A stretch of 64,000 nucleotides of DNA, taken from IMG/VR virus record IMGVR_UViG_3300022666_000111; one strand, 5' to 3'. Below the pieces are notes generated by a model. The model ran no database searches, had not been told where the DNA came from, and saw only the letters and a program-made list of their open reading frames with translations. Shown piece by piece: positions 1,284 to 47,523 of this stretch. Made by a program: the position numbers and the translations under genes. Source of the DNA: a virus. Taxonomy: Duplodnaviria > Caudoviricetes. Within the stretch, counting starts at the first letter, position 1, and every line of letters starts with the position of its first letter.

Positions 1284-2174
1284 ATGAACCGGCTTCTTCT
1301 TGACATCGTCCAAGACGGGCAGATCCCGATCTACGCTGCGCCTACGCGTGGGATGCGCTACTACACGCACACGGAGGAGCTGGTTTGGGATCCCCGTCGA
1401 GCCACCAACAAGATTCTCATCTCCGTAGGCGTCGACCATCGTCTCGACAGCATTCGAGAATTCTTGGGCACTGAGCTACTTCGTGATGAGGGCACCCTCA
1501 TTTTCGCGGTCAGGTATGTTGAGGCCCTCACGAGGGCTTTTCAAAACACGCCCACGCTCTTTGTCCTGGGTGGCATGGCCTTCGTACCGGGGGCCAACAC
1601 GCTAGGGACGCCTCTCGAGAATGGTGACCCTTGGCCTATTGTTCGGCAGTTCATTCACACCACCTACCGCCTTCAAAAGGGGCTTGAGCCTGACACGGCG
1701 CACCCAATCATTGACGACGCGGTGCAGCGCTACTTGGCGGGGCGCACAGCGCTGGATGTTGGCGTCCAACGGTCGGAGGCAAGGGACAAGGCCCTAGCTA
1801 TTCTAACGGCCAACCTTGACCCCGTGCAGCGGAAGGAGTTCCTTGAGCGCGGTCACTTCCACGTTGTCGGGCAGGACGGGCGCACCTACCGAATCGACAA
1901 GAAGCACACACATGGCGTTCACCGGATCGAGGGCGGCGTCAAGACGTTCGAGTACTGCCTTGTGGCGGACGTACACATACCCACCTTTGACCTTATGCTC
2001 ATGCAGAAGCTCCTTTTGGAGTCAGACACGACGCATTTTCTCGAGAAGGCAAATGCTTGGGATCTTCGTGGGGGCAAGCGTAAGTTCCTCCGAGGAGGGC
2101 ACCTCGCCATTGTTGATCCCAGCGGTGTAGTTGTGAAGCATGGCGAAGAAGAAGCCCCCGGAGCCCCTGGATGA
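1284..2174 (+). CDS. Hypothetical protein with C-terminal putative E2-like Cys domain
   Basis: GHFHVVGQDGRTYRI...YCLV...PTFDLMLMQKLLLESD...FLEKAN; E2 similarity is inferred. Confidence 0.5.
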   Translation: MNRLLLDIVQDGQIPIYAAPTRGMRYYTHTEELVWDPRRATNKILISVGVDHRLDSIREFLGTELLRDEGTLIFAVRYVEALTRAFQNTPTLFVLGGMAFVPGANTLGTPLENGDPWPIVRQFIHTTYRLQKGLEPDTAHPIIDDAVQRYLAGRTALDVGVQRSEARDKALAILTANLDPVQRKEFLERGHFHVVGQDGRTYRIDKKHTHGVHRIEGGVKTFEYCLVADVHIPTFDLMLMQKLLLESDTTHFLEKANAWDLRGGKRKFLRGGHLAIVDPSGVVVKHGEEEAPGAPG

Positions 2175-10008: not shown

Positions 10009-10104
10009 GTTGTTCCCTTGCCCTGGTGGAACAAAAGAACGTTGCTCCCTTGCCCCGGTGGAGCAAAAGAACGTTGCTCCCTTGCCCCGGTGGAGCAAAA
10101 GAAC
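10009..10104 (+). repeat. Three tandem 32-bp hairpin repeats, no spacers
   Basis: gttgctcccttgccccggtggagcaaaagaac x3; stem TTGCTCC/GGAGCAA with compensatory TTGTTCC/GGAACAA in copy 1. Confidence 0.9.
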
Positions 10105-10140
10105 TAAAACCCATCCTGCTCAAGCAGGTGTTGATTTACA

Positions 10141-10222
10141 CCAGCCCATCTTGGAGTGCTGGTCCTTAGTGCAGCCACTTTTGGAGTGTTGAGCCTGTCG
10201 CCAGCCACTTTTGGAGTGTTGG
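10141..10222 (+). repeat. Three 30-bp-period repeats
   Basis: ccagccacttttggagtgttgg-like units at 10141, 10171, 10201. Confidence 0.85.
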
Positions 10223-10229
10223 CCCTTAC

Positions 10230-10445
10230 TTCGCTTGCGTTCGAAAGTTCTGCCGCGATATCGTGGACTTCGTGACCGACCGGGAGACCCTCAAGAAGGG
10301 GATCTACGCGCACCTCTGGAACGCCGAGATCCGTTGCCGCAAGGACATCCCCGCAGGTTACCTTGTGCGCATCGGTGAGGATGAGGGCAATCGGGATCTC
10401 CGCGCGGCTTGGAAGCCCTCGCGAAAGAAGCTCTACCGCTACTAA
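10230..10445 (+). pseudogene. Major-capsid-like fragment (truncated, or GTG start at 10263)
   Basis: VRKFCRDIVDFVTDRETLKKGIYAHLWNAEI..KDIPAG resembles recalled capsid segment; TAG upstream in frame. Confidence 0.5.
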
Positions 10446-10463
10446 GCGGTGTAGAATGAGGGC

Positions 10464-10814
10464 ATGCAAGATATCGCGGCCTTCATTCACAACAACTGGA
10501 ACGCAATACGAGCCGTAGCGCTCAACAGCCCTCCCGACCACGTTTTGGTCGTATGGATGGGCACCAAGAATCTCGTCATCAATGCAACCCCTCGGGAGCA
10601 GCTCATCGCCGAGGACCCCGAGGCCGCCCCGGAGGCCGCCAAGGCGGGGCCACTACCGTCAACGGAAGGGGCCGTTGCCACCATCTGGCTTGCCATCTGT
10701 ACACGCCAGACGGAAGACACCTTCCAAATCGCCTGGTGTGCCGTGGATTTCATGGCAGACGAGACAGGCTCTCCCGAGATCGTCGACAAGCGTATGAACG
10801 CCAAGGGGGGGTGA
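10464..10814 (+). CDS. Hypothetical protein
   Basis: Leaderless ATG 9 nt after GGTGTAG. Confidence 0.65.
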   Translation: MQDIAAFIHNNWNAIRAVALNSPPDHVLVVWMGTKNLVINATPREQLIAEDPEAAPEAAKAGPLPSTEGAVATIWLAICTRQTEDTFQIAWCAVDFMADETGSPEIVDKRMNAKGG

Positions 10815-10817
10815 CGC

Positions 10818-11318
10818 GTGAGCAAGGACGCCCTCAAGGATCTCCAAGACCGGCTGGTCGGCAAGCGCATCCTCGCCATCGAACCGGCGAACGCCTCCGA
10901 AGGCGTCTGCCTCTTCAGGACCGAAGACGGCCACGCCTTTCGCTTACACGCCACGGACCTTGGCTTCTGGACGGAGGATACCGTTGGAGAGGACGGTTAC
11001 TACCCCTCCCTACATGCCCTCATGGTGGAGTACTCATACCACAACCACGACATTTCCCCGGGCTACAACTACAACCCGCCTGACGCCAAGGCAGTGTTCA
11101 AGGACGGCGTCCTCACGGTCCGATCGCCGAAGAAGCGTGAATTCAAGATCCGTGAGGCCAAGCTCACGCCTTGGGAGCTTACGGTTGCCAAAGACAAGGC
11201 GGGTCCACGGCTTCTGGGATTTGCCGCCCTCATGGGAGATGCTTGGAGGACCCCGTTCACGGGTAGCTACGAAGGCTGCCCCAAGCGTCTCGTCCTCCTA
11301 CCAACGATGACACCGTAG
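10818..11318 (+). CDS. Hypothetical protein
   Basis: 166-aa ORF in operon. Confidence 0.6.
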   Translation: MSKDALKDLQDRLVGKRILAIEPANASEGVCLFRTEDGHAFRLHATDLGFWTEDTVGEDGYYPSLHALMVEYSYHNHDISPGYNYNPPDAKAVFKDGVLTVRSPKKREFKIREAKLTPWELTVAKDKAGPRLLGFAALMGDAWRTPFTGSYEGCPKRLVLLPTMTP

Positions 11319-11576
11319 TGCTTTCTGATTGATCGCCCACCCCTTGCGGCATAACACCCGCGAGAAAGGACCCCTCATGTACACCTCAACACTATCCTGC
11401 CTGTACTGCCAAAAGACCCTCTCTCGTCCCGGTTATGACATCGTGGCCCTCACCGAGACCGCCCGCAAGAAGGGCTGGCGTCCCGTCTTCTTGCGCCTTG
11501 GAGCTGCTGCCGAATGGACGTGCCCTGAGTGTGCAGCCAAGGCGGCGAAGGCCCAATCCCAAGCGAAGGTGGCCCC

Positions 11577-11894
11577 ATGCTAGAGGGCTTCTTCTTCCTC
11601 GTTGCTTGCGTAGCGCTGGGCATGGCTGGTTGGTTCGTGCTGTATCACTACATGACCGTCAACCGGAAGCCTCGGCGCCTCTACACGACGAACGAGCTTG
11701 GAGGGCTTCCTCCGCCGATCGCGCCCTTCATCCGTGAGGCCCCCGTCGACCCGGATAAGGCCGATTGGGACGCGCGGCTCAAGGCTTGGGAGAAGTTGCG
11801 AGCTGAAGAGGCCGCTGCAACGATCGCGGCGGACGATCCGGACCTCTACGATGTCCTCGAAAAGGCCGCTGAAAAGGGGAGGCGTCATGTCTGA
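11577..11894 (+). CDS. Single-pass membrane protein
   Basis: Hydrophobic N-terminus FFFLVACVALGMAGWFVLY. Confidence 0.6.
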   Translation: MLEGFFFLVACVALGMAGWFVLYHYMTVNRKPRRLYTTNELGGLPPPIAPFIREAPVDPDKADWDARLKAWEKLRAEEAAATIAADDPDLYDVLEKAAEKGRRHV

Positions 11895-12333
11895 CACTAA
11901 AATGCCCATCGCGAAGATCAAGCTCAGAGCGCCCCATCATTGGGACAATGTGGGGGACGCCGGGGACGGCTACAGCACGGTCTACAAGTGCAAGGTCTGC
12001 GGATGTAACGCGACGTCCAACGGGCGCCCGAACGATAAGGACTACCCGCCTTGCAAGTACGTGACGACCAAACCCAAGGGGATGCCCGTCAAGCCAATCT
12101 CTTCTGAGTCCCCCGGCATCGAGCCCCCGTGGGTTAGCGTCTACCTTCGGGGGACCTTACCCTTTGAGGCAAGCATCCCACGATGCTCGCTGTGTCCTTG
12201 CCACGTTGCCTATCCCTGGCCTCTTTGTGGGCTTCAGCGAAGTGTCATCAAGGACATGCCGAAGGACGGGACGCTCCCGGCGTCCTGCCCGCTACATAGG
12301 GGACCCTTCACGCTACGGAAGGGGGAGAAGTGA
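11887..12333 (+). CDS. Cys-rich hypothetical protein
   Basis: CKVCG, CSLCPC, SCPL motifs. Confidence 0.55.
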   Translation: MSDTKMPIAKIKLRAPHHWDNVGDAGDGYSTVYKCKVCGCNATSNGRPNDKDYPPCKYVTTKPKGMPVKPISSESPGIEPPWVSVYLRGTLPFEASIPRCSLCPCHVAYPWPLCGLQRSVIKDMPKDGTLPASCPLHRGPFTLRKGEK

Positions 12334-12671
12334 AGACCATTCCGACCTACACGGCCAACGTCTATGTTGGCCTTCGACACAGCTACACCTATAGCTACAC
12401 GACGGAAAACGTGGTCCGAAGGTGGCTGAAGGACTATTGCACCCGGGAGAAGACGGGCGTCACCCTCACCCCTACGGAGTTCATCTACGTGGACGGCGCG
12501 GAGCCTGGGGTTATCATCGGGCTGATCCGGTACCCACGCTTCCCCAAGGAGATCGAGCGAATCGAAGAGGAGGCGCTTGCCATCGCAAAGGGGCTGATGG
12601 AGCTTTGCCGCCAAGAGCGCGTCTCCGTGGTCTTCCCTGACAGAACCGTGATGCTGGAAGCGGGCACATGA
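12330..12671 (+). CDS. Phage hypothetical protein
   Basis: TPTEFIYVDGAEPGVIIGLIRYPRFP motif; overlap-coupled. Confidence 0.7.
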   Translation: MKTIPTYTANVYVGLRHSYTYSYTTENVVRRWLKDYCTREKTGVTLTPTEFIYVDGAEPGVIIGLIRYPRFPKEIERIEEEALAIAKGLMELCRQERVSVVFPDRTVMLEAGT

Positions 12672-13075
12672 GACCCTTCAAGCCATACGCCGTGCCTACC
12701 GGGATTCGTCCGGTGCGAACCATTGAGTACTATGAGGGGCCGCTCCTCATCGAATTGAAGGACGCTGAAGGCGCGACGTGGCTGATGTTCTGGGTTGATT
12801 GTGACACCACGCACAACCGCTGGCTTCTTCTGAGGCGGCGCCCTCTTGCCATCGAGGCATACCTCCACCGCAACCTTGACCGGCGAAGGCTCGTTCTCGG
12901 ATCTCGCTACTTCCACCCAGGTTTGAAGCAGCCCTCGGATGAACCTGTGGTAGCCGTAGACACCGACGTTAAGGGCCATTGGATCAGGGCTTGGTTGATC
13001 GACGTTCTCCCCGAGGAGTATATCCCAGAGCCCTTCACCTTCTTCGATCCGGAGACAAGCAATGCCGAGCCTTGA
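12668..13075 (+). CDS. Hypothetical protein
   Basis: YYEGPLL...W...RWL...LPEEYIP; ATGA overlap. Confidence 0.6.
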   Translation: MRPFKPYAVPTGIRPVRTIEYYEGPLLIELKDAEGATWLMFWVDCDTTHNRWLLLRRRPLAIEAYLHRNLDRRRLVLGSRYFHPGLKQPSDEPVVAVDTDVKGHWIRAWLIDVLPEEYIPEPFTFFDPETSNAEP

Positions 13076-13712
13076 CTTCCTCCCAACGATCCGCCCGCCT
13101 CAACGCGTCTACCAGGACACGGTTGAAAACGTCCGCGCATACATCGGCCAAGGCGGGGCGGTTGGGATCCCCGTCTACGACATAGACTTCGAGGGCCACG
13201 ACCTCGTGTGTATCCTTGCGCTCAAGGCCCAAGAGGCCGTCTCGAAAGAAACGCCCCTAAGCGAAGAGATCCAGCGCCTCGTCACAAGCCTCTTCCAAGA
13301 CCGGGCTCGCTTGATCGTCAAGCCTGGGCAAAGGCGGCGCGTTTATGACGAGGATGGCGATATCCATTCGAACGCCGTCCCATACTACTCCTCTGACGAC
13401 GCCGCAGAGGACATGATGGCGGCCATTCGAGCGGAGTCACACTGGAGGGACGTCCTCGACGAGATCTACCGCGTCGCAAGCGAGGCCCTCGGCGGACGCA
13501 AGCTCTTCTTCGCCTTCGTGGACATCCTCCAATTCGACATTGACGGATTGGAACGCCAGCTCACCAAACTAGGCCACCGTCAGGTTGAATTCGCGATCAT
13601 CGTAGACAACAACACGGACGGATTCACGATTCCGAAGGCTCCGCCCTTGCCGCCACCGCCGCCGAAGCCTCCAGAGGACTTCTTCGAGCACCTCGAGGTA
13701 GATTGGATTTAA
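13062..13712 (+). CDS. Hypothetical protein with Pro linker and C-terminal acidic tag
   Basis: Ends PPPPPKPPEDFFEHLEVDWI. Confidence 0.7.
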   Translation: MPSLDFLPTIRPPQRVYQDTVENVRAYIGQGGAVGIPVYDIDFEGHDLVCILALKAQEAVSKETPLSEEIQRLVTSLFQDRARLIVKPGQRRRVYDEDGDIHSNAVPYYSSDDAAEDMMAAIRAESHWRDVLDEIYRVASEALGGRKLFFAFVDILQFDIDGLERQLTKLGHRQVEFAIIVDNNTDGFTIPKAPPLPPPPPKPPEDFFEHLEVDWI

Positions 13713-13714
13713 CC

Positions 13715-14086
13715 ATGCGACGTCTCATCCCCATTCTCATCGCCCTTTGCTCCTGCGGAAACTACGCCAAGATCGATGGAGGCCGTGTAGGTGAGGGTAA
13801 GCTGGGCGGCATTCGTCCGGGGCCGTATGACCCTGATGTTGTCGTTGTTGGCGCGCACGTATCCCTTGCGGCGGGGGACGTGCCTTGTGACGACGCGGAT
13901 CCGAACTACGTCACAACGGACGTCAAAGGGGAGTACGAGTACCTCCACGTAGATTCAGGGTGCAGCGAGGACCCGGATCGCTACACGTTCTGCGTGATTC
14001 ACCCTGACTACGAGACGTTCCGAGAGGTCTTGATGCACCGCCCGGTAGGGCCGAACATCAACGTGGAGCTGGTCAGGAAGCCTTGA
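13715..14086 (+). CDS. Putative lipoprotein
   Basis: MRRLIPILIALCSC lipobox-like signal. Confidence 0.6.
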   Translation: MRRLIPILIALCSCGNYAKIDGGRVGEGKLGGIRPGPYDPDVVVVGAHVSLAAGDVPCDDADPNYVTTDVKGEYEYLHVDSGCSEDPDRYTFCVIHPDYETFREVLMHRPVGPNINVELVRKP

Positions 14087-14288
14087 AACCGCAGATCGGG
14101 CAAGTGTCTTTGAACCCGCTGCGGCCAAGGAAGGGATGGCAGACCCGGTGACATAGGGGCTCAGAGGCTCGGCGATGCTGCTCCTTTCGGATGACATCGT
14201 GCAAGGACGCCGCTAGGCGCGTCCTCCCCTCGGCTGAGCTGAGCGCGTCTTTGACAAGCTCGTCGGGACTTGGGGGTTTATCGGTCAT
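14073..14288 (-). CDS. Small protein: capsid-N-terminus-like helix plus zinc finger
   Basis: ALSSAEGRTRLAASL..IR followed by CHRVCH...CPICG. Confidence 0.5.
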   Translation of the reverse strand: MTDKPPSPDELVKDALSSAEGRTRLAASLHDVIRKEQHRRASEPLCHRVCHPFLGRSGFKDTCPICGFKAS

Positions 14289-14773
14289 GACAGCCTCACG
14301 CAAGCAACGTTACCAAAGACGAAGGCTATGCCATCGCGCCCTTCGGACCAGGGGTTCATCCCGAGGAATTCTGGCTCCGGAAGACCTACAATGACACCAT
14401 CGGGGAAGGCGTACTCCGGCGCAATGACTACACGCGCCGTGGTAGGGGGCAGCACCGTCTCTCCGGAGACATAGAGCGTCGTGATCCGGAGATCCTGAAC
14501 CTGGCTCTCGAGCGCGTCCATGAGCGTCCCTTCAAACCCAGGGGGCAGTACCGTCGTGGCCCGTTGGAAAGCTGGAGTGGCCTTGACCATCTCGTTGAAG
14601 ATTCGGTTGAAGTCAAGGTTGGCGTGCAGTGTGATTGGATGCCGTCCGTCTCGGATCACCATGTGGATAGCATCCGCATCCATCCCAAGGATGTAGATGG
14701 GTTTGTCGAAGTCATAGTAGACGGCGCACAGGTCGGGAACGTGGTCCCTTGTGAGGAGTTCGCGGTAGTCCAT
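14285..14773 (-). CDS. Miniaturised major-capsid-like protein
   Basis: DLRITTLYVS...PDGVIVGLPEPEFLGMNP; leaderless after GGTGTAG. Confidence 0.5.
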   Translation of the reverse strand: MDYRELLTRDHVPDLCAVYYDFDKPIYILGMDADAIHMVIRDGRHPITLHANLDFNRIFNEMVKATPAFQRATTVLPPGFEGTLMDALESQVQDLRITTLYVSGETVLPPTTARVVIAPEYAFPDGVIVGLPEPEFLGMNPWSEGRDGIAFVFGNVACVRLS

Positions 14774-14808
14774 AGGGTACACTACACCAGGGCGGTGTAG
14801 ACGCCCTC

Positions 14809-19687: not shown

Positions 19688-20083
19688 ATGACCTGCCGAC
19701 ACTCCCCAGGCGACCCTAACTGCTCAAGCCACCCCAACCACCCGGACAACCCCGCGAACATCTACCGCCGCGAGGTTGAAGCGAAGACGCCCGACGCCGA
19801 GCGCTTCGAGATCATCGACATGGTCCGATGCGGCCCACACGTCGTCCTCAAGGTCAAATATCCCAACTGCTCACGATGCTCCTACGAGGGGACCAAGGTT
19901 ATGGTCTACCTCGACGTTTCGGAGTCACAGATCATCCGGTGGCGCAAGATCGACCCACACTTCCGGGAGAACCGTAACAACCTGCCTCCCCGTGAAGCCC
20001 CCGGCCCCGCTGCTCGCTTCCCCGCAAGCGACGAAGGCTGGGCGGACGCGATAGCTTACGCCGAGAGGAAGGCATCACGATGA
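19688..20083 (+). CDS. Phage hypothetical protein
   Basis: YPNC...YEG.KVMVY...IDPHF...PAARFP. Confidence 0.7.
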   Translation: MTCRHSPGDPNCSSHPNHPDNPANIYRREVEAKTPDAERFEIIDMVRCGPHVVLKVKYPNCSRCSYEGTKVMVYLDVSESQIIRWRKIDPHFRENRNNLPPREAPGPAARFPASDEGWADAIAYAERKASR

Positions 20084-21098
20084 TCGCACACCTTGTCCGA
20101 TTCGAATGCGGATGCGTCGGGTTTCACAACCCGGAGAGCAAGGGCTCGCCCTTTATCGTCAAGCCATGCGACAACGACCCTGGCGATCCGGAGATCAGCG
20201 CGGGTTACCGTGCTGACTGCATCGGTAAGCCTTGGAAAGAGCTGGACCCGTATGACGCTTCCGTCCTTCTCAGCAAGATCGCTGACCGCATAGCCTGCGG
20301 GAACAAGTTCCGCGCCCTCAAGGAGATCCTCGGATGAAATGGGAAGGCCCCTTTGACATGAAGGTAGGGCGTGAACGCAAGACGACGCCCATCAAGGTCG
20401 CAGAGGACCGCTACTACCTCTACCAGAGCAAGAAGATCACCAACTTCTGGTCATGCTGGGACAAGGAAACCGGGACGACGCACCTTCTCTGCGCATGGAC
20501 CTGGGAAGAGGCACAAGCCGCCGCCGAAGATAGGATTAGCCATGCTCGACGTACTCCGAGCGCTCCAAAGCGCCCTGCAAAAGCTCCTGACGCCAAGGCC
20601 AAGCCAATGCCCCGCCCTAAACGGAAGGCTAAGGTGTGAGCTGGACGCCGGGCACAAGGGAGAACACCGATGCTGGGTCGATCGCGGCTTCAACGGCCCG
20701 AAGTACTACTTGAATTGGGAGGACGAGATCCGTGAATAGGAACCAGAGCTACGTGGCTATGCCAGCCGAAGAGGTCATCCGACGCGCCCAAGAGATGATC
20801 GATATCATCGACCGCGATCGTGAGGCTGAACGCAAGGCCCTCCTCGAGGCCGAACGCGAATCCGCCCGCAAGAGCTGGTTCCGGCGCCTCTTCCGGCTTG
20901 CGATGCCCTCCGACGCGAAGCTGATCGAGGGGCTCCGGTCCTATGCCTTCAACGAGTACGACGCGACCTACATCATGTTTGGCTTGCAGCGCGATACCTC
21001 CGAACGCCTCCTCCGCGCCGCACGGAACGCCCAAGACGGGATCGTCTACGTCACAGCCGAAGATATGCACGCCCTCGCCTAACGGTGTAGGTGTGGTC

Positions 21099-21839: not shown

Positions 21840-22652
21840 ATGCAGATCAAACAAGCTCTCGAGGCACTGGGTACCTATGTTCAGCTCAAAAAGGATCTCC
21901 AGCAAGCCCAAACAACGGCGGATGAGATCGCCATCAAGCTCAATGAGCATCGTGCGCAAAGTGGCCTAACGGACGAGGACGTCGAAACGTATGGGCGGGT
22001 ACTCAACCTTCCCGCGCGCCCTGTCATCTGTAATCACCCACAGTCACCACCAACCTTTGATGAGGCCCGCTCCAACACACGAGACATCGCACGCAAATGC
22101 ATCTGGCAAGCCCTCAAAAACACGGAAGACCATAGCGATAAATGGGCGTCCGTGCGTAGGATCACAGAAGTGTATGCGGACGCCATGAGGCTGGCGCAGG
22201 CCGAACCCCAAATACCGTACATTCACAGCGTGCTCGTTGATGATGAGGGGCTCTGGTTGCAAGCCTCCCAAGACGGACTCTGGGCTATGCTTCCCCCCAA
22301 CAAGTGCTTCACCATCAAGAGCGTTCTGACTTGGATGGTAAACCATACAGATGGCACCACTGCCCTAGACATTGGACGGGGAATGCACGTACACGTCAAC
22401 CACCCCAACAGGATCCTAAAGAGGCTCCTTGCAGGCGGGTACGTCAAAGCCCAAGGGGCGACCACCGGAAGTAAACCCTTGAAAACTCACACAGGTGTCC
22501 GCACGATTTACACTCCCAACCCAAGTCTTAGCATCCTTCATGCAGCCATGCTGAACCCCTTGACAGACGACTTGATCAAGGCACTAGCCCACTTGTTTAA
22601 CCCCGTGGACATGGCTTGGCTCCGCGCCTGTGAACCTCCCGAATCCCGTTGA
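21840..22652 (+). CDS. Hypothetical protein with probable HTH/wHTH domain
   Basis: TTALDIGRGMHV...NRILKRLLAGGYV; SD GAGGTG. Confidence 0.55.
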   Translation: MQIKQALEALGTYVQLKKDLQQAQTTADEIAIKLNEHRAQSGLTDEDVETYGRVLNLPARPVICNHPQSPPTFDEARSNTRDIARKCIWQALKNTEDHSDKWASVRRITEVYADAMRLAQAEPQIPYIHSVLVDDEGLWLQASQDGLWAMLPPNKCFTIKSVLTWMVNHTDGTTALDIGRGMHVHVNHPNRILKRLLAGGYVKAQGATTGSKPLKTHTGVRTIYTPNPSLSILHAAMLNPLTDDLIKALAHLFNPVDMAWLRACEPPESR

Positions 22653-22681
22653 TCCCAACCGCCCTGGCGCGTAGCTAGGGC

Positions 22682-22786
22682 ATGACAACGGACCTCATCT
22701 ACTTCGCCATCGGCATCGCCCTCGGGACCATCGCCTACCGTCTCTCGAAAGACCTCTGGTGTAGATACACCCGAAAGGCCAAGTAG
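22682..22786 (+). CDS. 34-aa membrane peptide
   Basis: MTTDLIYFAIGIALGTIAYRLSKDLWCRYTRKAK; ATG at +33 of a class-1 promoter. Confidence 0.6.
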   Translation: MTTDLIYFAIGIALGTIAYRLSKDLWCRYTRKAK

Positions 22787-23256
22787 CGATGTCCACGTAT
22801 GAAGTCACGCCCTACACCAAGGCGAAGTCCAACGCCCTAGCCGATCAAGCGCAAGCCGAGGCCGATAAGGCTCAAGAGGCCCTCAACCTTGACGCCATGT
22901 CGCCCTCCGAACTTGAAGCCGTGACGCACCCCAAGCTCAAAGCCTACGCCCGGCTCAAGATCCGCGCCATGAAGGCCCGCTACAGCGGCAACATCGCCCA
23001 AGCCGTCCTCCTCGAGGACAAGTGTGAGAAGTCCTACAAGAAGCTCCCTCCCGAGCTTAGGTGGTGACGCTATGAGCATCCGAGCTACCCTCGAGCTGGC
23101 CCAAAAGCTCCGCGAGCTTATCGAGAAATCGCGCCAGGACGCCTCCCTTGTGAAGGCTGAAAAGGAAGCCTCCCTTGTGGAAGCAAAACGCAAGCTCGAT
23201 GAGCCCAAGGACGCCCTTGACCAGCTAAGAGACGCCGACCTCTTCGAGGAGGACCC

Positions 23257-23691
23257 ATGAACCCCTGCTTTCACGACCACGGCCGCGTGGGCTTCTTCAA
23301 CGAGCGCAAGAACCTCAAGGTCCACCTCACCGCCGACCTACGCCCAACCAACGGACCCCAATTCTTGAACCTTCGCGAAAGCGAAGCCCGCGCCTTGGTC
23401 AACCGCGCACGCGCCCTCTACCCCAACTACGTCATCCACGTCGTATGGTCCTCCAACGTCATCATCGACAGCATAGCCTATGACTTCACACGTGAACGAG
23501 ATCTGCAACTTCACCTCTTCATGAGCGACCGCTTCGGAGGCAACCTGACGCCCCCTGACTGGATGCGTGAACCCGGCGCCCCAACCGTCACACGTGAACC
23601 CGTAGCCAAGGCTCCAAGCCCACGCAAGCTGCCCCCAGAACCCAAAGAGGTTGACGCCTTCACCATGCTCATGGAGGACGACTTCCTGTGA
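23257..23691 (+). CDS. Paralog-array protein 1 (one domain plus acidic tag)
   Basis: HVVW...PPDW; ends DAFTMLMEDDFL. Confidence 0.7.
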   Translation: MNPCFHDHGRVGFFNERKNLKVHLTADLRPTNGPQFLNLRESEARALVNRARALYPNYVIHVVWSSNVIIDSIAYDFTRERDLQLHLFMSDRFGGNLTPPDWMREPGAPTVTREPVAKAPSPRKLPPEPKEVDAFTMLMEDDFL

Positions 23692-24326
23692 GCGCGGCGA
23701 CCGTTACCTATGCCAATGACGGTTTGGTCAAGGGCACCTACGGCTACCTTGACCAAACCGGCAAAGCGTCCCCTTGCCTACGCTGGTCAAAAGAGCTGAA
23801 CCCAAGACAAGCCCAAATCCGCGTCGCAGCCCTGGCCAAGAAACTCGAGTCACACGCCTGCCTTCACGTGCTGTGGCGTACACACCCCCTCTGCGACACT
23901 ATGCTCACCCTGGCCTTCGTCAAAACCGCCCAACCCCAAGACGGGGATAGCCCACCTTGGACCGAAGCCATCGGCGAACCCAAAGCGTCATACCGTCACG
24001 TGAAAGGTAACCCAGCCTTCCCAGAAGGCGTCCAAGGCGACTACGCCTTCCTCGGCCCCAACGGTGGACGCTCAAGACACCTACACTGGTCCGAATCCCT
24101 TACGCCCACCAAAGCCTACCAACGCGTCGCCTTGGTCAGCGCGGAACGTACCTCGCCCGACCTTCACGTGCTGTGGCGCTACTCGCCCCTACGCCCAGGC
24201 CGCGTAGACCTCGCCTTCCTTGCCGTAACCCAAGCCCAGGAAAGCACGCTCCCACCTTGGATGCCCCGTGTCAAAAGACCCAAACGTGACTTCTTCGACA
24301 TCTTGACCGAGGACGATATCCTATGA
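23688..24326 (+). CDS. Paralog-array protein 2 (two domains plus acidic tag)
   Basis: LHVLWR...LAF...PPW twice; ends RDFFDILTEDDIL. Confidence 0.75.
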   Translation: MSAATVTYANDGLVKGTYGYLDQTGKASPCLRWSKELNPRQAQIRVAALAKKLESHACLHVLWRTHPLCDTMLTLAFVKTAQPQDGDSPPWTEAIGEPKASYRHVKGNPAFPEGVQGDYAFLGPNGGRSRHLHWSESLTPTKAYQRVALVSAERTSPDLHVLWRYSPLRPGRVDLAFLAVTQAQESTLPPWMPRVKRPKRDFFDILTEDDIL

Positions 24327-24931
24327 GCCACCTGGTCTTCGCCAATACACGCACGCGCAGAACGCCCCCGGCCCAAACCAAAATCCAAGCCGCCTCCCTC
24401 GGCAGCTCATACGAGGCCGCTACTACCGCCGTCCTGCGCGCCGTGCGGGACAACATGGGCCAAGACTTCTACATCCCGTGGAAAGAACTACGCCGCGACG
24501 TCATCTGGTACGAAATCCGCCGCTTCACCCGAGACGCCCCCGAAAGTAGCAGCCCCTTCCCCGACTGGTTCACTCATAAGCAAACCGTGAGCTACGAAGA
24601 AACCGATCTCAATATCCACCCCAACGGTATGCACCCCATCGTCCAAGCCGCCCCACCAGGCTATACCTTCGCCGACCACGTCCGCGCTGGAGCCGCTTGG
24701 ACCATCACCTTGAACCATACCGTCGCCATGGAACACATACGGAGAGCCGCCGAATTCGTCGCCCCTCTCAACCTCTACGTCCGCTGGATGCCTTGGCGCT
24801 GGGGCGTCCGCCTCGCCCTCTTCAAAACCGTCCAACCTATCCCCATAACGCCCCTCCCACCCTGGGCCGGAGGCGACGCCCCCACACAACGCGACTTCTT
24901 CGACCTCTTGACCGAGGACAATACCCTGTGA
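24323..24931 (+). CDS. Paralog-array protein 3 (two domains plus acidic tag)
   Basis: FYIPW...FPDW and LYVRW...LPPW; ends RDFFDLLTEDNTL. Confidence 0.75.
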   Translation: MSHLVFANTRTRRTPPAQTKIQAASLGSSYEAATTAVLRAVRDNMGQDFYIPWKELRRDVIWYEIRRFTRDAPESSSPFPDWFTHKQTVSYEETDLNIHPNGMHPIVQAAPPGYTFADHVRAGAAWTITLNHTVAMEHIRRAAEFVAPLNLYVRWMPWRWGVRLALFKTVQPIPITPLPPWAGGDAPTQRDFFDLLTEDNTL

Positions 24932-25425
24932 GCCCACAAGGCTACGTCTTCATCGAATACAAACCTCCTCATGGAAAGCGACACGTGAAAAGCGTTACCT
25001 CGGTTCTCCGAAGCGTCATCTTCATGCTCAAGCCCCGTGTGGTGAACGTCAACCCCAAGGACGTCCCAGCCATCCGCCGCCAACGCTGGTTCGAGGTCAA
25101 CACCCACAACGCTACCAACTACGGCCACGTGGGCTACGCCCTACAAACGCGAATCTACGCCAATACCACCGTCCCAAGAGGTCACGTCCACGGGGATACA
25201 CGCCCTCAACCCCTAACCCAAGCCCAACGCGCCCTCCTAGAACGCGGCGTCGACGACGAAGCCCTCGCACACTACAAGAGCATCGCCCTACGCCAATGCG
25301 TCAACCTCGGCTACGCCATACGTACACGCCCAGGAGGCTTCTACCGAACTACCCCAGCCGGTTGCCACGCCATCCAAACCTTCCCCGACGCCTACGCCAA
25401 ACTCCTCTCCGGTGTAGACCTCTAA
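24928..25425 (+). CDS. Hypothetical protein with C-terminal wHTH-like region
   Basis: GTGA overlap; LTQAQRALL...LGYA...YRTTPAG. Confidence 0.6.
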   Translation: MSPQGYVFIEYKPPHGKRHVKSVTSVLRSVIFMLKPRVVNVNPKDVPAIRRQRWFEVNTHNATNYGHVGYALQTRIYANTTVPRGHVHGDTRPQPLTQAQRALLERGVDDEALAHYKSIALRQCVNLGYAIRTRPGGFYRTTPAGCHAIQTFPDAYAKLLSGVDL

Positions 25426-25426
25426 C

Positions 25427-25882
25427 ATGCCAACCCTCATCGCCGAATTCGCCTTCACCAAACAAGGCCAACACTGCATCACCCTCAACCGCCCACCCGT
25501 TACCCCTACGCCCGGTATGCACCTCAAAGCACAAACCGGCGAACAGGCAACCGTCCTCTCCGTCGAACGTATGCAGAAGGCTACAGGCCCAGGCAATAAC
25601 TGGGTCCTCACCCTCACTCAACCCCTCCCAGCCAATACACCCCTAGAGGCTACACCAGCCCAACGCCCCGAAACAGGCCCTATGGCTTTCGGTTCCGACT
25701 GGCCAGGCGTCTTCATCCGAGGCGATAACGCCCTCGCCTATACCCTAGCCCTCCAAAACGCCCTCAACCAAGACCCCGACAACCTCGAACTACGCTCCCT
25801 CCTGAGCTTGCTCTCCTCCTGCCAATGCCCCGCACCCACTACCGTACACCTCAACCCCTTCACCGAATGCTTGCCCAAATGA
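25427..25882 (+). CDS. Hypothetical protein
   Basis: RPETGPMAFGSDWPGVFIRGDNA; leaderless after GGTGTAG. Confidence 0.65.
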   Translation: MPTLIAEFAFTKQGQHCITLNRPPVTPTPGMHLKAQTGEQATVLSVERMQKATGPGNNWVLTLTQPLPANTPLEATPAQRPETGPMAFGSDWPGVFIRGDNALAYTLALQNALNQDPDNLELRSLLSLLSSCQCPAPTTVHLNPFTECLPK

Positions 25883-26070
25883 ACTACCTCATCGTCCGTA
25901 CACACGAGAACGGCGAAGTGTCCCTCCAGTACGCCGCTACCCTACGCGACCTGGAAACCCTCGCCAACGAAGACCCCAACCCCAACAACCCCACCGTGAG
26001 CATCCAACGCTACGCCCTCCTCCCCTAACGATTCCAGTTGATCCCCCACCCCCTCACGCATGTAGCCACC

Positions 26071-26406
26071 ATGGATACAGCCAACAGCTACCGCGAAGCC
26101 CGTGCCTGCCGCAAACTCGTCGCCAACGCCTCCATCAAAATCGAAGAGGCCACTCTCGACGGTACCACCTTCAGCCTCAAAATCCGCACCACCCTGGGTG
26201 CCATCGTCGGCTACGGCAACGTCAACCCCGACGCCTGTAACGAAGGCTGGACCCTCAACGGTAAGCCTATCCCCATGAAGGACTGGCCCGACATCGACGT
26301 CGTCACCCCACTGACCCCCAATACTGACGGCTACTGGCACCGCCTAAGTACCCTCGTCAGCCAACTCGAAGAATGGATCAACAACCTCGTGGAACGTCAA
26401 GGCTAG
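26071..26406 (+). CDS. Hypothetical protein
   Basis: ATG at +33 of class-1 promoter 26038. Confidence 0.65.
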   Translation: MDTANSYREARACRKLVANASIKIEEATLDGTTFSLKIRTTLGAIVGYGNVNPDACNEGWTLNGKPIPMKDWPDIDVVTPLTPNTDGYWHRLSTLVSQLEEWINNLVERQG

Positions 26407-26481
26407 ATCCCCAGATCGCCTTTGCCTACAACCCCCACCAGCCCATCTACAATCCCCAGATCACCTTTACCTACAACCCCC
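26407..26481. repeat. 30-bp imperfect direct repeat at the GC-skew switch
   Basis: atccccagatcRcctttRcctacaaccccc at 26407 and 26452. Confidence 0.85.
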
Positions 26482-26862
26482 TCAAAACACACGGATGCTA
26501 AACACTCGTGCGCGTCCGGTCACGATTGGCCGAAAAACGATATTGGCACAGATATTGTCTCAGAGGCCGGTAGTTTAGCTCCGATGTAGGCGTAGGAATA
26601 TACGGTTGATCGTCTGCTGTGTGGGGTGTAGAAGGGGGTATGAAGCCCTACGGGAACACGCGGTATGAGAACCTGGTATGTGCCTACGGGTGCTGCTCGG
26701 GTGGGTGTGTGCACAAGGGGACGCTGGGCTACCGTGTCCCCAAGGCGGTGCGACGCCGGGCTCGCAAGCGGGCAAGGCGGGAGGGCAAGAGCTATGAGTG
26801 AGCGCCTACCGGGGGACCCTCCCCCTGACAAGATGGCTCCAACCGTGACGCCCCAGTCTGAG

Positions 26863-27357
26863 TCAGCCCTTATGTGTGGCGAGGTACTGTAGTGCTGCCT
26901 GGAAGATCTTGGGGTTCTCGCGAAGGAATCCGATGCCAGTATTGCAGGCGTTGCAAAGGAGGCCGCGTACAGCACCGGTGGTGTGGTTATGGTCGATGCA
27001 CAAGCGCCCATTGGCTGGAGGGGGTTCCCCACAGATGGCGCACACGCCTCCCTGAACAAGGAGCTGGGTGTCGTACCATGCAGGGCACACGCAGCGCTTT
27101 CGAAGCCGCTGCTTTCGGCGTTGGCGTTCGGCCGGGACGTTTAGGCCCTTCAGGGGATCCCCCACCTCCTTGTGGGCTTGTAGTGCTGTGTCAGCCTCGG
27201 TCATACGCTCCTCGGCTTTACGCAAGCGTGCCTCGCAATAGCGGAGGCGGTTCTGGAGCTTGGAGACCTCGTCGCGCAGGGCCTTACGTGTTAGGTACTC
27301 CTGACACCTTCCGAACATGGCACAGAGAGGGTTGGTATCAGGGAAGGGCTCACTCAT
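26863..27357 (-). CDS. Endonuclease VII-domain protein
   Basis: QGGVCAICG...LCIDHNHTTGAVRGLLCNACNTGIG. Confidence 0.85.
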   Translation of the reverse strand: MSEPFPDTNPLCAMFGRCQEYLTRKALRDEVSKLQNRLRYCEARLRKAEERMTEADTALQAHKEVGDPLKGLNVPAERQRRKQRLRKRCVCPAWYDTQLLVQGGVCAICGEPPPANGRLCIDHNHTTGAVRGLLCNACNTGIGFLRENPKIFQAALQYLATHKG

Positions 27358-27535
27358 GCTTGGCCTCCTGGTGTAACGCTGCCTCCATCTGGGTGAGCCC
27401 CTTCTCCAACAGGAGACGTAGGACACCTGAGCGGTTGACTGGAACTCCAGCACTACGCTCCCGGAGGGTAGCCTCAACCTGGTTGAGGCGCTTCAACAGC
27501 TCAGCATCCAGCCTCAGTGATATCAGTGTGATCAT
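27350..27535 (-). CDS. Ribbon-helix-helix DNA-binding protein
   Basis: ISLRLDAELLKRL...NRSGVLRLLLEKGL. Confidence 0.75.
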   Translation of the reverse strand: MITLISLRLDAELLKRLNQVEATLRERSAGVPVNRSGVLRLLLEKGLTQMEAALHQEAKHE

Positions 27536-28054
27536 GGTAGGCGGTGTAGCACAGAGAATACAACAGTCAAGAGAAGTCTGGAGAGATCATGTCACGATTA
27601 CGCCCTGTGAGTGAGCGGCCTCCTTCTGGGGAGGCGGTGTTGGTACTGACGCGGGGGTCGCCGTTGTTCTATCGGGGCATCTGGTTCGTGGATGAACGGT
27701 GGACGGTAGAGGGTGAGCTGACCAGGGACCCTGATGTAGTCGGGTGGATCCCTATGCCTACCGTGTCGGAGGATGGGGAGGTTTGCCTCGGCCCGCAAAA
27801 GTGATGCCATGCCAGAATCGCTCGATTATCTTTTTCGAGGTTCGGCAGGCGGCTACGGGGCGTGTTGAGTATGCGCACGTTGGGCGGTCGGCAAACGCTG
27901 AAAAGGGGGAATGGGGGTCTCTTCTAAGGGGGGGTTCTGGTAGGCGGGGTCTGGATTTTTCGCCCGGCTGAATTTTGGCCCGGAAGTCAAAAATCGCCAG
28001 GGGTGATAAAGAGGCTGATGGTGGCGGCCAAGGCGGCGAGGGTAACGAGGGCGG

Positions 28055-28471
28055 CTAGGGTTGACACTTGGTGGCTTTCCGTTGGGCGTAGGTTGATTCT
28101 AGGGTGAAGCTGATCTTGTTGACGTCGGAGAGCTTAGCCCAGAAGGAGGTTGAGGCTTTGCCGTTGGGTTTGACGATCTTCCAGGTGATGGAGTCGTAGT
28201 TAGCTTCGCGGGAGGGGGCGGCCTTGGCGGTATTGCGGACGTAGACACGTGCGACCTCGAGGGTGGTACCTGCTGGGAGGGTGATGGTGGTGGTCCGGCG
28301 TTTGGCGCAAGTCTTGGGGTCGACGTAGTAGTCGCGCCAGGAGAGGGGTTGGGTGATGGCGCCTTGGAGGAGGAGGAAGCGGGCGTTGCGGCGTTCGAAG
28401 TAGGCTGTGAAGGTCCAGGGGAGGTTGAGGGTGATACGGTCACCGCAGGCTGGGATGTAGAGGGTGGTCAT
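28055..28471 (-). CDS. Phage hypothetical protein
   Basis: LYIP..GD.I.L..W.F...ERRN...FWAKLSDVN; GGTGTAG promoter. Confidence 0.7.
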   Translation of the reverse strand: MTTLYIPACGDRITLNLPWTFTAYFERRNARFLLLQGAITQPLSWRDYYVDPKTCAKRRTTTITLPAGTTLEVARVYVRNTAKAAPSREANYDSITWKIVKPNGKASTSFWAKLSDVNKISFTLESTYAQRKATKCQP

Positions 28472-28789
28472 ACTGGGATGCTACACCGTGCGAGGGCGTC
28501 TTTGAGGACCTTGGTAGCGGTAGGGATGGCGTTGGAGTCGACGCCTTCGGCGTCTATGGTGAGGGTTGCTGATCCGTTCCAGTAGTCGATGTGGGCTTGG
28601 AGGATGCAGACGCTGATGGGGCAGGTAGCTCTAGCGGTAGCGGTTATGAGGTCGCCGAGGGCGGCGAGGTTTTGGTAGGTCCCCTTGGCGGTGATTTCGG
28701 CGCGAACGGTGTCGAGCTTTTCTTCGGTCTTGTAGACGCGGGCGGTTTGTGTTGTGACGTTGAGGTCGAGTGAGATCTTCATGGGGGTA

Positions 28790-29311
28790 CTATGCGTCTG
28801 GATCGGTGGGATCAATTGGGAGGGGTTCGATTTCGAGAGGGGTTGTAGGGTTTAGGGGTGGTTCGGGTGCGGAGTGGTTGTCGTCGCGGAGCTTGTCGAA
28901 GAGGGTGGGGCCTTGGGGAGGTTCGGGGCCTTGTTGGACGAGGCGGCTTGAGATGATATCGTCGTCGGTGAGGGGCGTATCCGAAAGGCAGAGGCAGAGG
29001 TTTCTATCGGGGTCCCGGACGGTGAAGAAGAGGTTGCCGGTTTTCTGGACGACGAAGACGTCGCCGGTTCTAGCGTAGCGGAACCATTCGATGGGGCGTT
29101 CTTCGTGGCACCAGAGGTAGCGGAAGATGGGGTAGCCTATGGGGGGGACGAGGCTCCAGACGTTGCCGTAGGGTTCGTCGGGGGCGAAGAACTCAATGGA
29201 GAGGCAGCCGTTGGGTTCGAGGTCTTCGAGGATACGGGCGAGGGAGAGGGGCTTTAGTCGTGCCCACCATTGGCCTTTTCTTGGTGTGAAGTCGACGTCT
29301 GAGATATGCAC
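28790..29311 (-). CDS. Hypothetical protein with internal TLFDKLRDD tag
   Basis: GTG 8 nt after GGTGTAG. Confidence 0.6.
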   Translation of the reverse strand: MHISDVDFTPRKGQWWARLKPLSLARILEDLEPNGCLSIEFFAPDEPYGNVWSLVPPIGYPIFRYLWCHEERPIEWFRYARTGDVFVVQKTGNLFFTVRDPDRNLCLCLSDTPLTDDDIISSRLVQQGPEPPQGPTLFDKLRDDNHSAPEPPLNPTTPLEIEPLPIDPTDPDA

Positions 29312-29319
29312 GTAGGGGT

Positions 29320-30003
29320 CTACACCGTGGGGAAGACCTTACCGTCGCGCAAGCGGATGGTTGTGATGACGCGGGTTTCGGTGAGCTTTTGGATTTGGCG
29401 GATGGCGCCGGGGGTAGACTTGTAGTGGTGTTTGATTTGGGCGAGGGCGTCTTTGAGGGGCGTTCCGGGGTGGGCCTTGGCGAAGTCGGTGAGGTTGATG
29501 ACGGTTTGCTTGAAGGGGGTCCAAGCGCCGGATTGGCTACCGGCTGGGCAGAAGGTTTTCTGCTCTTCGTGGAGGCGCCAGCGGGCGGAGCCTGGGCGGT
29601 TGGTAGGGGAGAGGGTTTCGGTGACGTTGCGTGAGACTTCGATGAGGCCGATACCTTTCCAGACGAGGACTTCTTTGGCGAAGCGTGTCACGTCGGTTTT
29701 GCGTCGGAACGGGACGGCGACCGAGACGCGTTGGGCGTAGGGGACCCAGCGGTTGGCTTGGGAGAGGACTTCGAGGTTGAGGTTGCATTTGACCTCGATG
29801 ACCCAGATGGTCATATCTTGGCGTGCGACGATGTCGGCGCGGTTGCCTAAGAAGTCGACCTCTTGGAAGACCTCCCAGCCCAGGTCTTTCAGCCAGGCGA
29901 CGACGGGGGCTGCGACGTCGGTTTCGGCGAGACGCGGCTTACGGTTGCGCCTCGACTTTGGTAGTACAGGATGACGTTTCTTGCGGGTTTTCCTTCGGAC
30001 CAT
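29320..30003 (-). CDS. PD-(D/E)xK nuclease-fold protein
   Basis: E...GWEVFQEV...RADIVA...VIEVK...QA. Confidence 0.75.
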   Translation of the reverse strand: MVRRKTRKKRHPVLPKSRRNRKPRLAETDVAAPVVAWLKDLGWEVFQEVDFLGNRADIVARQDMTIWVIEVKCNLNLEVLSQANRWVPYAQRVSVAVPFRRKTDVTRFAKEVLVWKGIGLIEVSRNVTETLSPTNRPGSARWRLHEEQKTFCPAGSQSGAWTPFKQTVINLTDFAKAHPGTPLKDALAQIKHHYKSTPGAIRQIQKLTETRVITTIRLRDGKVFPTV

Positions 30004-41761: not shown

Positions 41762-42133
41762 TCAAGCGTCATCCTCCTCAAGAAGGTTCCAGGCGTCTTT
41801 GGGCTTAGGCATATCTGCTGCTGCCTGTTCAAGCTGAGCAAGGATCTCAAGATCAATCTCGTACGCGATCTGCTGGGCTGCCGTGAGCGGTCTTGGAGGC
41901 GGGGGCGGTGGCTCGGGTCGCATCCGAAAGGGCTCCTCATCCTTGAGGCGATCGAAGATGTCGGAGTCGTCTCGGATGAAGCTGAACAGGACCGGGAAGA
42001 CGGATGTGCACCAGGCGGTTGCGTCACCCTCAAGGAAGACGTGCTCAGCGTCCACGGAAACGACCGTAGCCTCGGGAGGACGCCCCTCGGGGTACTTGCG
42101 GAGCCAGACTTGCCCTGGGCGCACGTCAGTCAT
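41762..42133 (-). CDS. SH3-like domain protein with two acidic tags
   Basis: VRPGQVW; DIFDRLKDEE; DAWNLLEEDDA. Confidence 0.65.
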   Translation of the reverse strand: MTDVRPGQVWLRKYPEGRPPEATVVSVDAEHVFLEGDATAWCTSVFPVLFSFIRDDSDIFDRLKDEEPFRMRPEPPPPPPRPLTAAQQIAYEIDLEILAQLEQAAADMPKPKDAWNLLEEDDA

Positions 42134-46839: not shown

Positions 46840-47523
46840 ATGAGTTACTTTTGCGACGATGCTGAGTTCACACGGCTGGCGGCCCTTAGCCGGTCTCCTT
46901 CAAGTCTTGTTCGCCTGTTGGGTCGGGCGGTCGGGGGGAATAATGTCGAGCTGGTCAAAAGAGAAGCGGCCAGGCTTGGGCTTGACACGTCCCATTGGAA
47001 CGGGGCTGGGAGGGTCCTTCCGAAAGTTGGATCCTCCCAAGTGCTGATCGAAAATGGCGTACATGCTACAAGTGTCGTCAAACGGGTTGTGCTTCGAGAG
47101 CGCCTGATCCCCTACACGTGCGCCCTTTGTGGACGTGACCCAGAGTGGAATGGGCGCCCCTTAGTTCTTCGGTTAGATCACGTGAACGGCGTACGCACGG
47201 ATCACAGGATCACCAATTTGCGCTTCCTGTGTCCCAACTGCGATTCCCAAACGGAGACCTATTGTGGTGGGAACCGGCGCATCTACAAGGATCACAAGAG
47301 GTGCTCTTGCGGTGCCGTGATCCAACGTCGAAGCACGGCTTGCAAGTCGTGCTCGGTTAAGGCTCGAAACCAGCCCCCAAAGGCGGAGTGGCCCCCGGAT
47401 GCAGAGCTTCTAAGGCGTGTCCGGGAGTCATCTTTCTTGGCGGTTGCACGTGCGCTCGGTGTATCAGACAATGCAGTACGGAAGCACATGCGGGCTCGTC
47501 ACCTAGTGGTCGAAGGTAGCTGA
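46840..47523 (+). CDS. HNH homing endonuclease
   Basis: CALCG...LRLDHVNG...NLRFLCPNCDSQT; C-terminal zinc finger and HTH; overlaps tRNA 5' end. Confidence 0.9.
   Translation: MSYFCDDAEFTRLAALSRSPSSLVRLLGRAVGGNNVELVKREAARLGLDTSHWNGAGRVLPKVGSSQVLIENGVHATSVVKRVVLRERLIPYTCALCGRDPEWNGRPLVLRLDHVNGVRTDHRITNLRFLCPNCDSQTETYCGGNRRIYKDHKRCSCGAVIQRRSTACKSCSVKARNQPPKAEWPPDAELLRRVRESSFLAVARALGVSDNAVRKHMRARHLVVEGS

What the first reader, a model, noticed from the sequence alone, without database searches (positions are those of the whole stretch)
10230..14773. Scattered major-capsid-like fragments as stand-alone mini-genes
Seen: RKFCRDIVDF..DRETLKKGIYAHLWNAEI..KDIPAG (10230-10445), ALSSAEGRTRLAASL..IR (14073 gene) and DLRITTLYV...PDGVIVGLPEPEFLG (14285 gene). 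From memory these resemble C-terminal, N-terminal and condensed pieces of one large-phage major capsid family (GRAKLAASM..., DLRVA.VYMN..RKFGRDILD...LWGAQI...P.G.VY..EPE.FG). Weaker echoes: AQQIAYEIDLEIL (41762 gene), FAGLPVIV (43077 gene), QDGQIPIY (1284 gene). Inference: decoys for capsid-sensing defences or assembly modulators/exclusion factors.
Basis: inference. Interest (0 to 1): 0.7.

Follow-up and report, generated by a model that had tools for sequence, protein, structure and literature searches.

The report
Accessory genes built from capsid pieces
A large uncultured phage keeps three small genes, away from any head genes, that are cut-down pieces of its type of shell protein and are under selection; they may distract bacterial sensors that detect that protein, but this is untested.

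Summary
The three main pieces are real derivatives of the phage G gp27-type (HK97-fold) major capsid protein (MCP). 10230-10385 matches MCP 191-242 (E 2.5e-10). The 71-aa gene 14073-14288 carries the N-arm, MCP 9-38 (E 6e-4). The 162-aa gene 14285-14773 is a collinear, shrunken MCP 38-288 with most of the P-domain deleted (weaker: z 9; hhalign E 5.6e-6). The last two form a coupled minus-strand cassette with its own GGTGTAG start box. Related phages show purifying selection (dN/dS 0.09-0.17), so neutral decay is unlikely. The cassette is reshuffled between relatives. Of the weak echoes, 43077 has no support and 1284 and 41762 are marginal. The 10230 piece has no start codon before GTG 10263. 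Similar pieces occur in 9 of 30 related genomes, including cultured Tunturi_5; the head protease gives none. Decoy against capsid-sensing defences is the best guess (0.4) but untested. I found no paper on it. This scan noted the same phenomenon before, on this genome and on other jumbo phages.

The parts
10230..10385 (+). Segment homologous to the inner A-domain of the MCP (residues 191-242 of the 291-aa reference L084:2001-2873)
   Evidence: HMM E 2.5e-10; 40% identity over 52 aa; only PDB hit is 6WKK gp27; dN/dS 0.18 against L212
10263..10445 (+). Called 60-aa gene (P0258, GTG start) holding most of that segment plus a basic tail; true start unresolved
   Evidence: Called in public assemblies; coding-like codon usage, +20.8 bits; 78% identical relative P0259 in L212
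10009..10231 (.). Repeat-rich leader: 3 x 32 nt (10009-10104), then 3 x 30-nt period (copies start 10142, 10172, 10202); in-frame TAG at 10167-10169
   Evidence: and direct reading; 10075-10234 is identical in L212 while the coding part diverges; no Rfam match
14285..14773 (-). 162-aa shrunken MCP derivative (P0002): E-loop, part of the spine helix, A-domain core and last strand; lacks about MCP 93-115, 190-219 and 251-270
   Evidence: hhalign global E 9.3e-5 alone, 5.6e-6 with its relative; top of 309 window tiles; 2 of 2 differences synonymous in L167; relative P0273/P0274 has dN/dS 0.088
14073..14288 (-). 71-aa gene (P0262): MCP N-arm helices (MCP 9-38) fused to a Cys/His-rich tail; its ATG overlaps the TGA of the 162-aa gene
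   Evidence: HMM E 5.6e-4, N-arm-only HMM E 1.5e-5; orthologue in L219, 60% identical, pS 0.73 vs pN 0.31
14782..14788 (-). GGTGTAG start box serving the two-gene cassette, back to back with the box of the 14809 gene
   Evidence: 16 of 31 GGTGTAG sites in the window have ATG at +15/+16; same arrangement in L219 and L220
25033..25194 (+).
   Evidence: A-domain HMM E 0.034, no reversed decoy under E 3; z 5.1; unconfirmed
1284..1520 (+). Marginal echo: possible condensed E-loop/spine piece at the N-terminus of the 1284 gene
   Evidence: 2 of 500 shuffles reach the score; not established
41810..41890 (-). Marginal echo: spine-helix-like stretch between a polyproline run and an acidic tail
   Evidence: hhalign E 0.076, 25 of 500 shuffles; no Pfam, PDB or phage hit, only a PHROG of unknown function at E 0.016; not established

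Best explanation
Shown: the three genes descend from a phage G-type MCP, lie among small accessory genes, cannot make a shell, and are kept as proteins by selection. Inferred mechanism: they are assembly-incompetent mimics of the free capsid monomer. They would occupy host proteins that recognise MCP, most likely immune sensors such as Avs7/8/10-, CapRel- or Thoeris-type receptors, without completing sensor activation, because part of the interface (P-domain, P-loop) is missing. The 162-aa protein is the best candidate. The 60-aa and N-arm pieces would act as short epitopes.
For: In this control the reuse is specific to the capsid. Over the same 16 genomes a single MCP query gives 14 extra hits in 9 genomes, the equally long head protease none, and gp327 three weak ones. 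The pieces are biased to the N-arm and A-domain, while the most information-rich block (MCP 247-280, P-loop region) is seldom taken. Alleles are under purifying selection, yet the condensed proteins of related phages are only 30-32% identical and sit on opposite sides of the N-arm gene, as is usual for conflict genes. The cassette has its own start box. Published sensors bind these surfaces. Avs7 engages the A-domain extensively (10.64898/2026.01.04.697583). CapRel contacts the P-domain and A-domain loops (PMC9712102). In Thoeris a P-loop change keeps ThsB1 binding but blocks ThsB2 recruitment (PMC12578639), which shows how a P-loop-less mimic could bind without triggering.
Against: There is no binding or functional evidence, the host is unknown (uninformative), and the phage's own MCP is not in the window. 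In the 71-aa protein the capsid-derived half changes faster than the Cys/His tail (pN 0.42 vs 0.12). The 10230 piece lacks the first helix and strand and the last strand of the A-domain, so it is unlikely to fold alone, and it has neither a clear start nor a GGTGTAG box. The 162-aa protein keeps only about 23% identity to the reference MCP. A partial capsid could trigger a sensor rather than block it. One strain has the N-arm gene apparently interrupted by a resolvase-carrying element. The control covers only two usable other proteins.
Confidence: 0.4

Rival explanations
1. Exaptation without capsid-related function. The MCP gene is a frequent donor of ready-made helices and beta-scaffolds that get fused to portable tags (TAT-like leaders, Zn ribbons, Cys/His or acidic tails); each chimera is then selected for its own unrelated job.
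For: Pieces in other genomes carry very different tags and extents. The Cys/His tail is more conserved than the N-arm. Several conserved MCP residues are replaced in the 10230 piece (G217, G221, S227, P241). Divergence from the MCP is large.
Against: The same few MCP blocks recur across unrelated genomes, the 162/178-aa proteins keep collinear blocks over the whole MCP length, and the protease gives no pieces.
Confidence: 0.28
2. Assembly modulators or exclusion factors. The pieces join capsomers or bind scaffold or chaperone, tuning head assembly or poisoning the heads of co-infecting relatives or satellites.
For: The A-domain and N-arm make capsomer and scaffold contacts in HK97-fold shells (own knowledge). 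The P-domain needed to close the lattice is deleted, as expected of a chain terminator. In L219 the N-arm gene precedes the condensed gene in MCP order.
Against: The genes lie outside any head module. Low similarity to the MCP makes co-assembly doubtful. Gene order is not fixed between relatives, and 4 of 8 near-complete genomes and phage G show no extra piece.
Confidence: 0.2
3. Neutral relics of duplicated capsid genes. This is most plausible for the 10230 piece, which may have lost its 5' end to the repeat leader.
For: No canonical start covers the whole homologous stretch, there is no start box, and the N-arm gene is interrupted in one strain.
Against: dN/dS is 0.17 in the capsid frame versus above 1.3 in the other frames, the same as the neighbouring gene (0.18). 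The condensed gene has 13 synonymous and 4 replacement changes (Fisher p about 7e-7 and 4e-6). Frames are intact in every allele seen except that one insertion.
Confidence: 0.06
4. The 162-aa protein is not capsid-derived but related to another virion protein family (PF25675 Phage_nozzle).
For: ESM Atlas feature search: 27 of 30 hits carry PF25675, score 0.93, about 200 shared features.
Against: The tool reports scores of 0.9 or more for 4-10% of shuffled proteins. No nozzle appears in the PDB search with the 3-sequence profile (gp27 does not appear either). Collinear MCP blocks are found in both the protein and its distant relative, and it is coupled to an MCP N-arm gene.
Confidence: 0.06

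Closest known systems
Bacillus phage G major capsid protein gp27 (PDB 6WKK; phrog_2522; also Tunturi_5 gp334 and cluster C mycobacteriophage MCPs)
   Same: Sequence ancestry: N-arm, E-loop and A-domain blocks in the same order
   Different: 60-162 aa instead of about 290; P-domain largely missing; outside the head module; fused to foreign tails
Structural capsid paralogues such as T4 gp24 vertex protein (own knowledge)
   Same: Second genes derived from the MCP and kept by selection
   Different: gp24 is a full HK97 fold built into the shell; these pieces are sub-domain sized, variable between relatives and absent from many family members
Capsid-sensing defences: Avs7/8/10 (10.64898/2026.01.04.697583), CapRel SJ46 (PMC9712102), Thoeris ThsB1/B2 (PMC12578639)
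   Same: They supply the selective pressure and bind the surfaces that the pieces keep
   Different: The escape routes I read in these papers are point mutations in the MCP; no capsid-derived decoy turned up in the papers searched
Viral pseudosubstrate decoys such as vaccinia K3L, and satellite capsid-remodelling proteins Sid, CpmAB, TcaP (own knowledge)
   Same: Truncated homologue used as a competitive binder (K3L); small proteins acting on capsid assembly (Sid, CpmAB, TcaP)
   Different: K3L mimics a host protein, not the virus's own; the satellite proteins are not MCP fragments and are encoded by the parasite

Membership tests
Phage G gp27-type HK97 major capsid protein | Sequence homology to the family | tested here: met
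   (strong for 10230, good for 14073, moderate for 14285)
Phage G gp27-type HK97 major capsid protein | Complete N-arm, E-loop, P-domain and A-domain in one chain of about 290 aa | tested here: not met
   Pieces cover MCP 191-242, 9-38, and 38-288 with three large deletions
Phage G gp27-type HK97 major capsid protein | Encoded in the head module next to protease, scaffold and decoration genes | tested here: not met
   Neighbours are small accessory genes; compare Tunturi_5 and phage G; no full MCP in the window
Phage G gp27-type HK97 major capsid protein | HK97 fold in three dimensions | tested here: inconclusive
   The single-sequence model of the 162-aa protein has pLDDT 32; only the reference MCP folded well
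Structural capsid paralogue (T4 gp24 type) | Full-length fold, conserved across the phage group | tested here: not met
   Patchy and variable across 30 genomes; one near full-length paralogue seen only in G020
Structural capsid paralogue (T4 gp24 type) | Present in the virion | not testable with these tools
   The phage is known here only from assemblies
Anti-defence decoy protein | Real, selected protein | tested here: met
   dN/dS 0.09-0.17 and a start box for the cassette; start of the 10230 piece unresolved
Anti-defence decoy protein | Binds a host sensor and blocks its activation | not testable with these tools
   Host and sensor unknown
PF25675 Phage_nozzle (for the 162-aa protein) | Profile match to the family | tested here: inconclusive
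   Feature-level hit only; no Pfam match in the local library, which may predate this model; no nozzle in the PDB search

The most novel reading that the evidence does not exclude
Phage G-like giant phages carry a swappable repertoire of capsid-derived decoys (N-arm, A-domain and P-domain-less mini-capsid proteins) that bind capsid-sensing immune receptors without activating them. This would be a general counter-defence for a target the phage cannot easily mutate.
Probability: 0.3. Interest if true: 0.8.

Novelty: new variant of a known kind. Interest (0 to 1): 0.55.

Why it matters
The major capsid protein is a repeated trigger of bacterial anti-phage sensors, and the escape I found described is point mutation. 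If cut-down capsid proteins act as decoys, this is a new counter-defence strategy that is common in one clade of giant phages. It is testable now: the genes are short, capsid-sensing systems work in E. coli, and the cultured phage Tunturi_5 carries such pieces (gp172, XOB77615.1, and an open frame near 158,500). Even without the decoy role, the pieces show a core structural gene serving as a repeated source of accessory genes, and they warn against annotating such hits as capsid genes.

Tried and rejected
Pfam and PHROG scans of the pieces gave nothing useful. No whole genome is held for the window, and the 341,626-bp parent contig was not returned, so the phage's own MCP could not be used. 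Searches for close relatives in viral and metagenome contigs failed; the two motif hits are an unrelated host gene. The condensed-protein profile found no clear relative in 45 clade genomes. The 'shorter' homologue search mostly returned short-contig, probably truncated, MCP pieces, so it was not counted as evidence. Single-sequence AlphaFold of the 162-aa protein was unusable. Co-folding of the 162-aa protein with the N-arm peptide gave no answer. An HMM test for excision of the P-domain hairpin in A-domain pieces was not discriminating. The gp328 control is a multi-domain protein and uninformative. A split-protein model (10230 piece filling the gap in the 162-aa protein) was rejected because the two overlap at MCP 221-242. 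The hit at 20059-20391 is antisense to a called gene and was rejected. Genome bins holding this MCP type are taxonomically mixed and give no host.
Full report
Setting. The window is gene-dense, about 59% GC. Its proteins are on record on contigs of 341,404 and 341,626 bp. It holds tail-fibre-like genes at the left, then clusters of small genes, an RNA ligase, a tRNA nucleotidyltransferase and an RNA-binding protein. I read it as part of a giant phage. No full capsid gene lies in the window.

The family. The 10221-10442 translation finds the major head protein of Tunturiibacter phage Tunturi_5 and an uncultured 485-kb phage. The 291-aa MCP of the latter is 37% identical to Bacillus phage G gp27, is related to cluster C mycobacteriophage MCPs, matches PDB 6WKK at E 1e-59 and phrog_2522. 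It folds well and its nearest Atlas models are HK97-fold capsid clusters. I built a 91-sequence profile from relatives found.

Three real pieces. 10230-10385 matches MCP 191-242, the inner part of the A-domain (E 2.5e-10), and on its own retrieves gp27 from the PDB. The 71-aa gene 14073-14288 has the N-arm helices, MCP 9-38 (E 5.6e-4; 1.5e-5 with an N-arm-only model), then a Cys/His tail. The 162-aa gene 14285-14773 is the weakest by ordinary HMM (E 0.088), but it aligns collinearly from MCP 38 to 288 with three long deletions. With cheap deletions it scores 31.4 against a shuffle maximum of 24.2 and a best natural control of 22.3. With its one distant relative it gives hhalign E 5.6e-6. Mapped on the model, it keeps the E-loop, part of the spine helix, the A-domain sheet and the last strand. 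It loses most of the P-domain and the A-domain segment 190-219. Domain names here are my assignment from the secondary structure. An ESM feature search placed it near PF25675 instead; I could not confirm this and rate it low.

The echoes. 43077 is chance-level, 41762 is reached by 5% of shuffles, and the 1284 N-terminus by 0.4%; with many genes to choose from, none is established.

Gene anatomy. The 162-aa and 71-aa genes are a minus-strand island in a plus-strand cluster, joined by an ATGA overlap. A GGTGTAG box starts 15 nt before the first ATG. This box has an ATG at +15/+16 in 16 of 31 cases in the window, so it is a start signal of this phage; whether it acts in transcription or translation is not known. 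The 10230 piece has no such box. Its frame opens at 10170 after a TAG, and the first canonical start is GTG 10263, inside the homologous stretch. The 11 codons before that GTG still show mainly synonymous change against L212 (5.5 of 7.5 synonymous sites, 5.5 of 25.5 replacement sites; p about 0.01-0.03). Either a longer product is made by recoding or the 5' end was replaced recently. The window encodes a tRNA with a UUA anticodon that could in principle read the TAG. The upstream frame looks non-coding, however, and is made of 32-nt and 30-nt repeats. My odds: 60-aa product 0.45, longer recoded product 0.3, recently truncated 0.25.

Selection. Against L212 the 10230-10442 frame has dN/dS 0.17, like its neighbour (0.18), while other frames give over 1.3. 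Two alleles of the 178-aa relative of the condensed protein differ by 13 synonymous and 4 replacement changes (0.088). All three differences in the cassette of L167 are synonymous. The N-arm gene has pS 0.73 and pN 0.31 against L219, with the tail more conserved than the capsid half. Neutral decay is therefore unlikely.

Variation between relatives. In L219 the order is N-arm gene then condensed gene, as in the MCP; in the window it is the reverse. The two condensed proteins are 30-32% identical, against roughly 40-70% for most neighbours, so they may be paralogues rather than fast-evolving orthologues. In run ERR7015388 the N-arm gene stops at 59 codons before a MerR-resolvase gene, and its remaining tail begins the other contig. 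I infer an insertion; the contigs are not joined.

A clade-wide habit. With the MCP profile, 9 of 30 related genomes or records (4 of 8 near-complete ones, plus Tunturi_5; not phage G) have extra partial matches, 26 in all, against about 1.5 expected at the cut-off. Two pairs of these genomes look near-identical. Most pieces are N-arm, A-domain or the 85-113 block, often behind a TAT-like leader or a Zn ribbon. The block 247-280 has the highest information content but is seldom taken. In a like-for-like single-sequence control over 16 genomes the MCP gave 14 extra hits, the head protease none outside its own gene, and gp327 three weak ones.

How it most likely works. Shown: origin, selection, a start signal for the cassette, patchy distribution, capsid bias. 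Inferred: assembly-incompetent mimics that compete for proteins recognising free MCP. Sensors that read the A-domain, E-loop and P-domain are published. The Thoeris P-loop mutant that binds the first sensor but not the second shows how a P-loop-less copy could jam a system. I put this at 0.4, unrelated exaptation at 0.28, assembly or exclusion at 0.2, relic at 0.06 and a non-capsid origin of the 162-aa protein at 0.06. The three pieces need not share one role.

Novelty. I found no paper describing such genes. They fail membership as capsid proteins or vertex paralogues but descend from them, so I class this as a new variant of a known kind. The scan has noted the same phenomenon elsewhere on this genome and in T4-like and Lu11-like jumbo phages. 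Those notes are AI readings and are not counted as evidence. This report adds allele-level selection data, the rearranged cassette, the start-codon problem and a protease control.

Noticed in passing
window 47492-47583 +: tRNA with a UUA anticodon (ochre-suppressor type), the only tRNA ARAGORN finds in the window.
   Followed up: no
window-wide, e.g. 83, 2124, 10448, 14794, 15159, 25411, 44631 (+); 14788, 28487, 30754, 44627, 56218 (-): GGTGTAG box with ATG at a fixed +15/+16 in 16 of 31 sites; a start signal of this phage, often in back-to-back pairs.
   Followed up: partly
window 10009-10231: Two repeat arrays with 32-nt and 30-nt periods (about three helical turns) between the tail-like genes and the small-gene cluster. 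160 nt are identical in L212 although the next gene has dS 0.77: recent recombination or a constrained protein-binding array.
   Followed up: partly
window 24928-25425 +: Possible further A-domain-derived gene (E 0.034 with an A-domain model); not found on record as an exact protein.
   Followed up: partly
window 13062, 24323, 41762, 42126 and 43077 genes: Shared acidic-aromatic C-terminal tail, mostly after a Pro-rich linker; none of the three main capsid pieces has it.
   Followed up: no
L220:4094-6167 and L212:4245-4398: MerR-resolvase gene plus a long ORF (IS607-like by architecture, not tested) apparently inserted into the N-arm gene in run ERR7015388.
   Followed up: partly
G020:273765-274649 (L198): Near full-length second MCP paralogue with a TAT-like leader, far from the head module of a 456-kb phage.
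   Followed up: no
Tunturi_5 PP885688.1 122430-122723 (gp172) and about 158521-158781: A cultured phage with stand-alone MCP pieces; gp172 joins MCP 256-285 (weak match) and 85-113 in permuted order behind a TAT-like leader.
   Followed up: partly
window 22000-30000: Sharp switch of GC and AT skew near 26-28 kb, a possible replication origin or strand switch.
   Followed up: no
L213 and L215 vs window 10065-10750: Mosaic alleles: stretches identical to the window switch abruptly to L212-type sequence, showing frequent recombination among these phages.
   Followed up: no
G014:189218-190987: Head protease match split in two inside a 1,371-aa open frame, possibly by an intein or inserted domain.
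   Followed up: no
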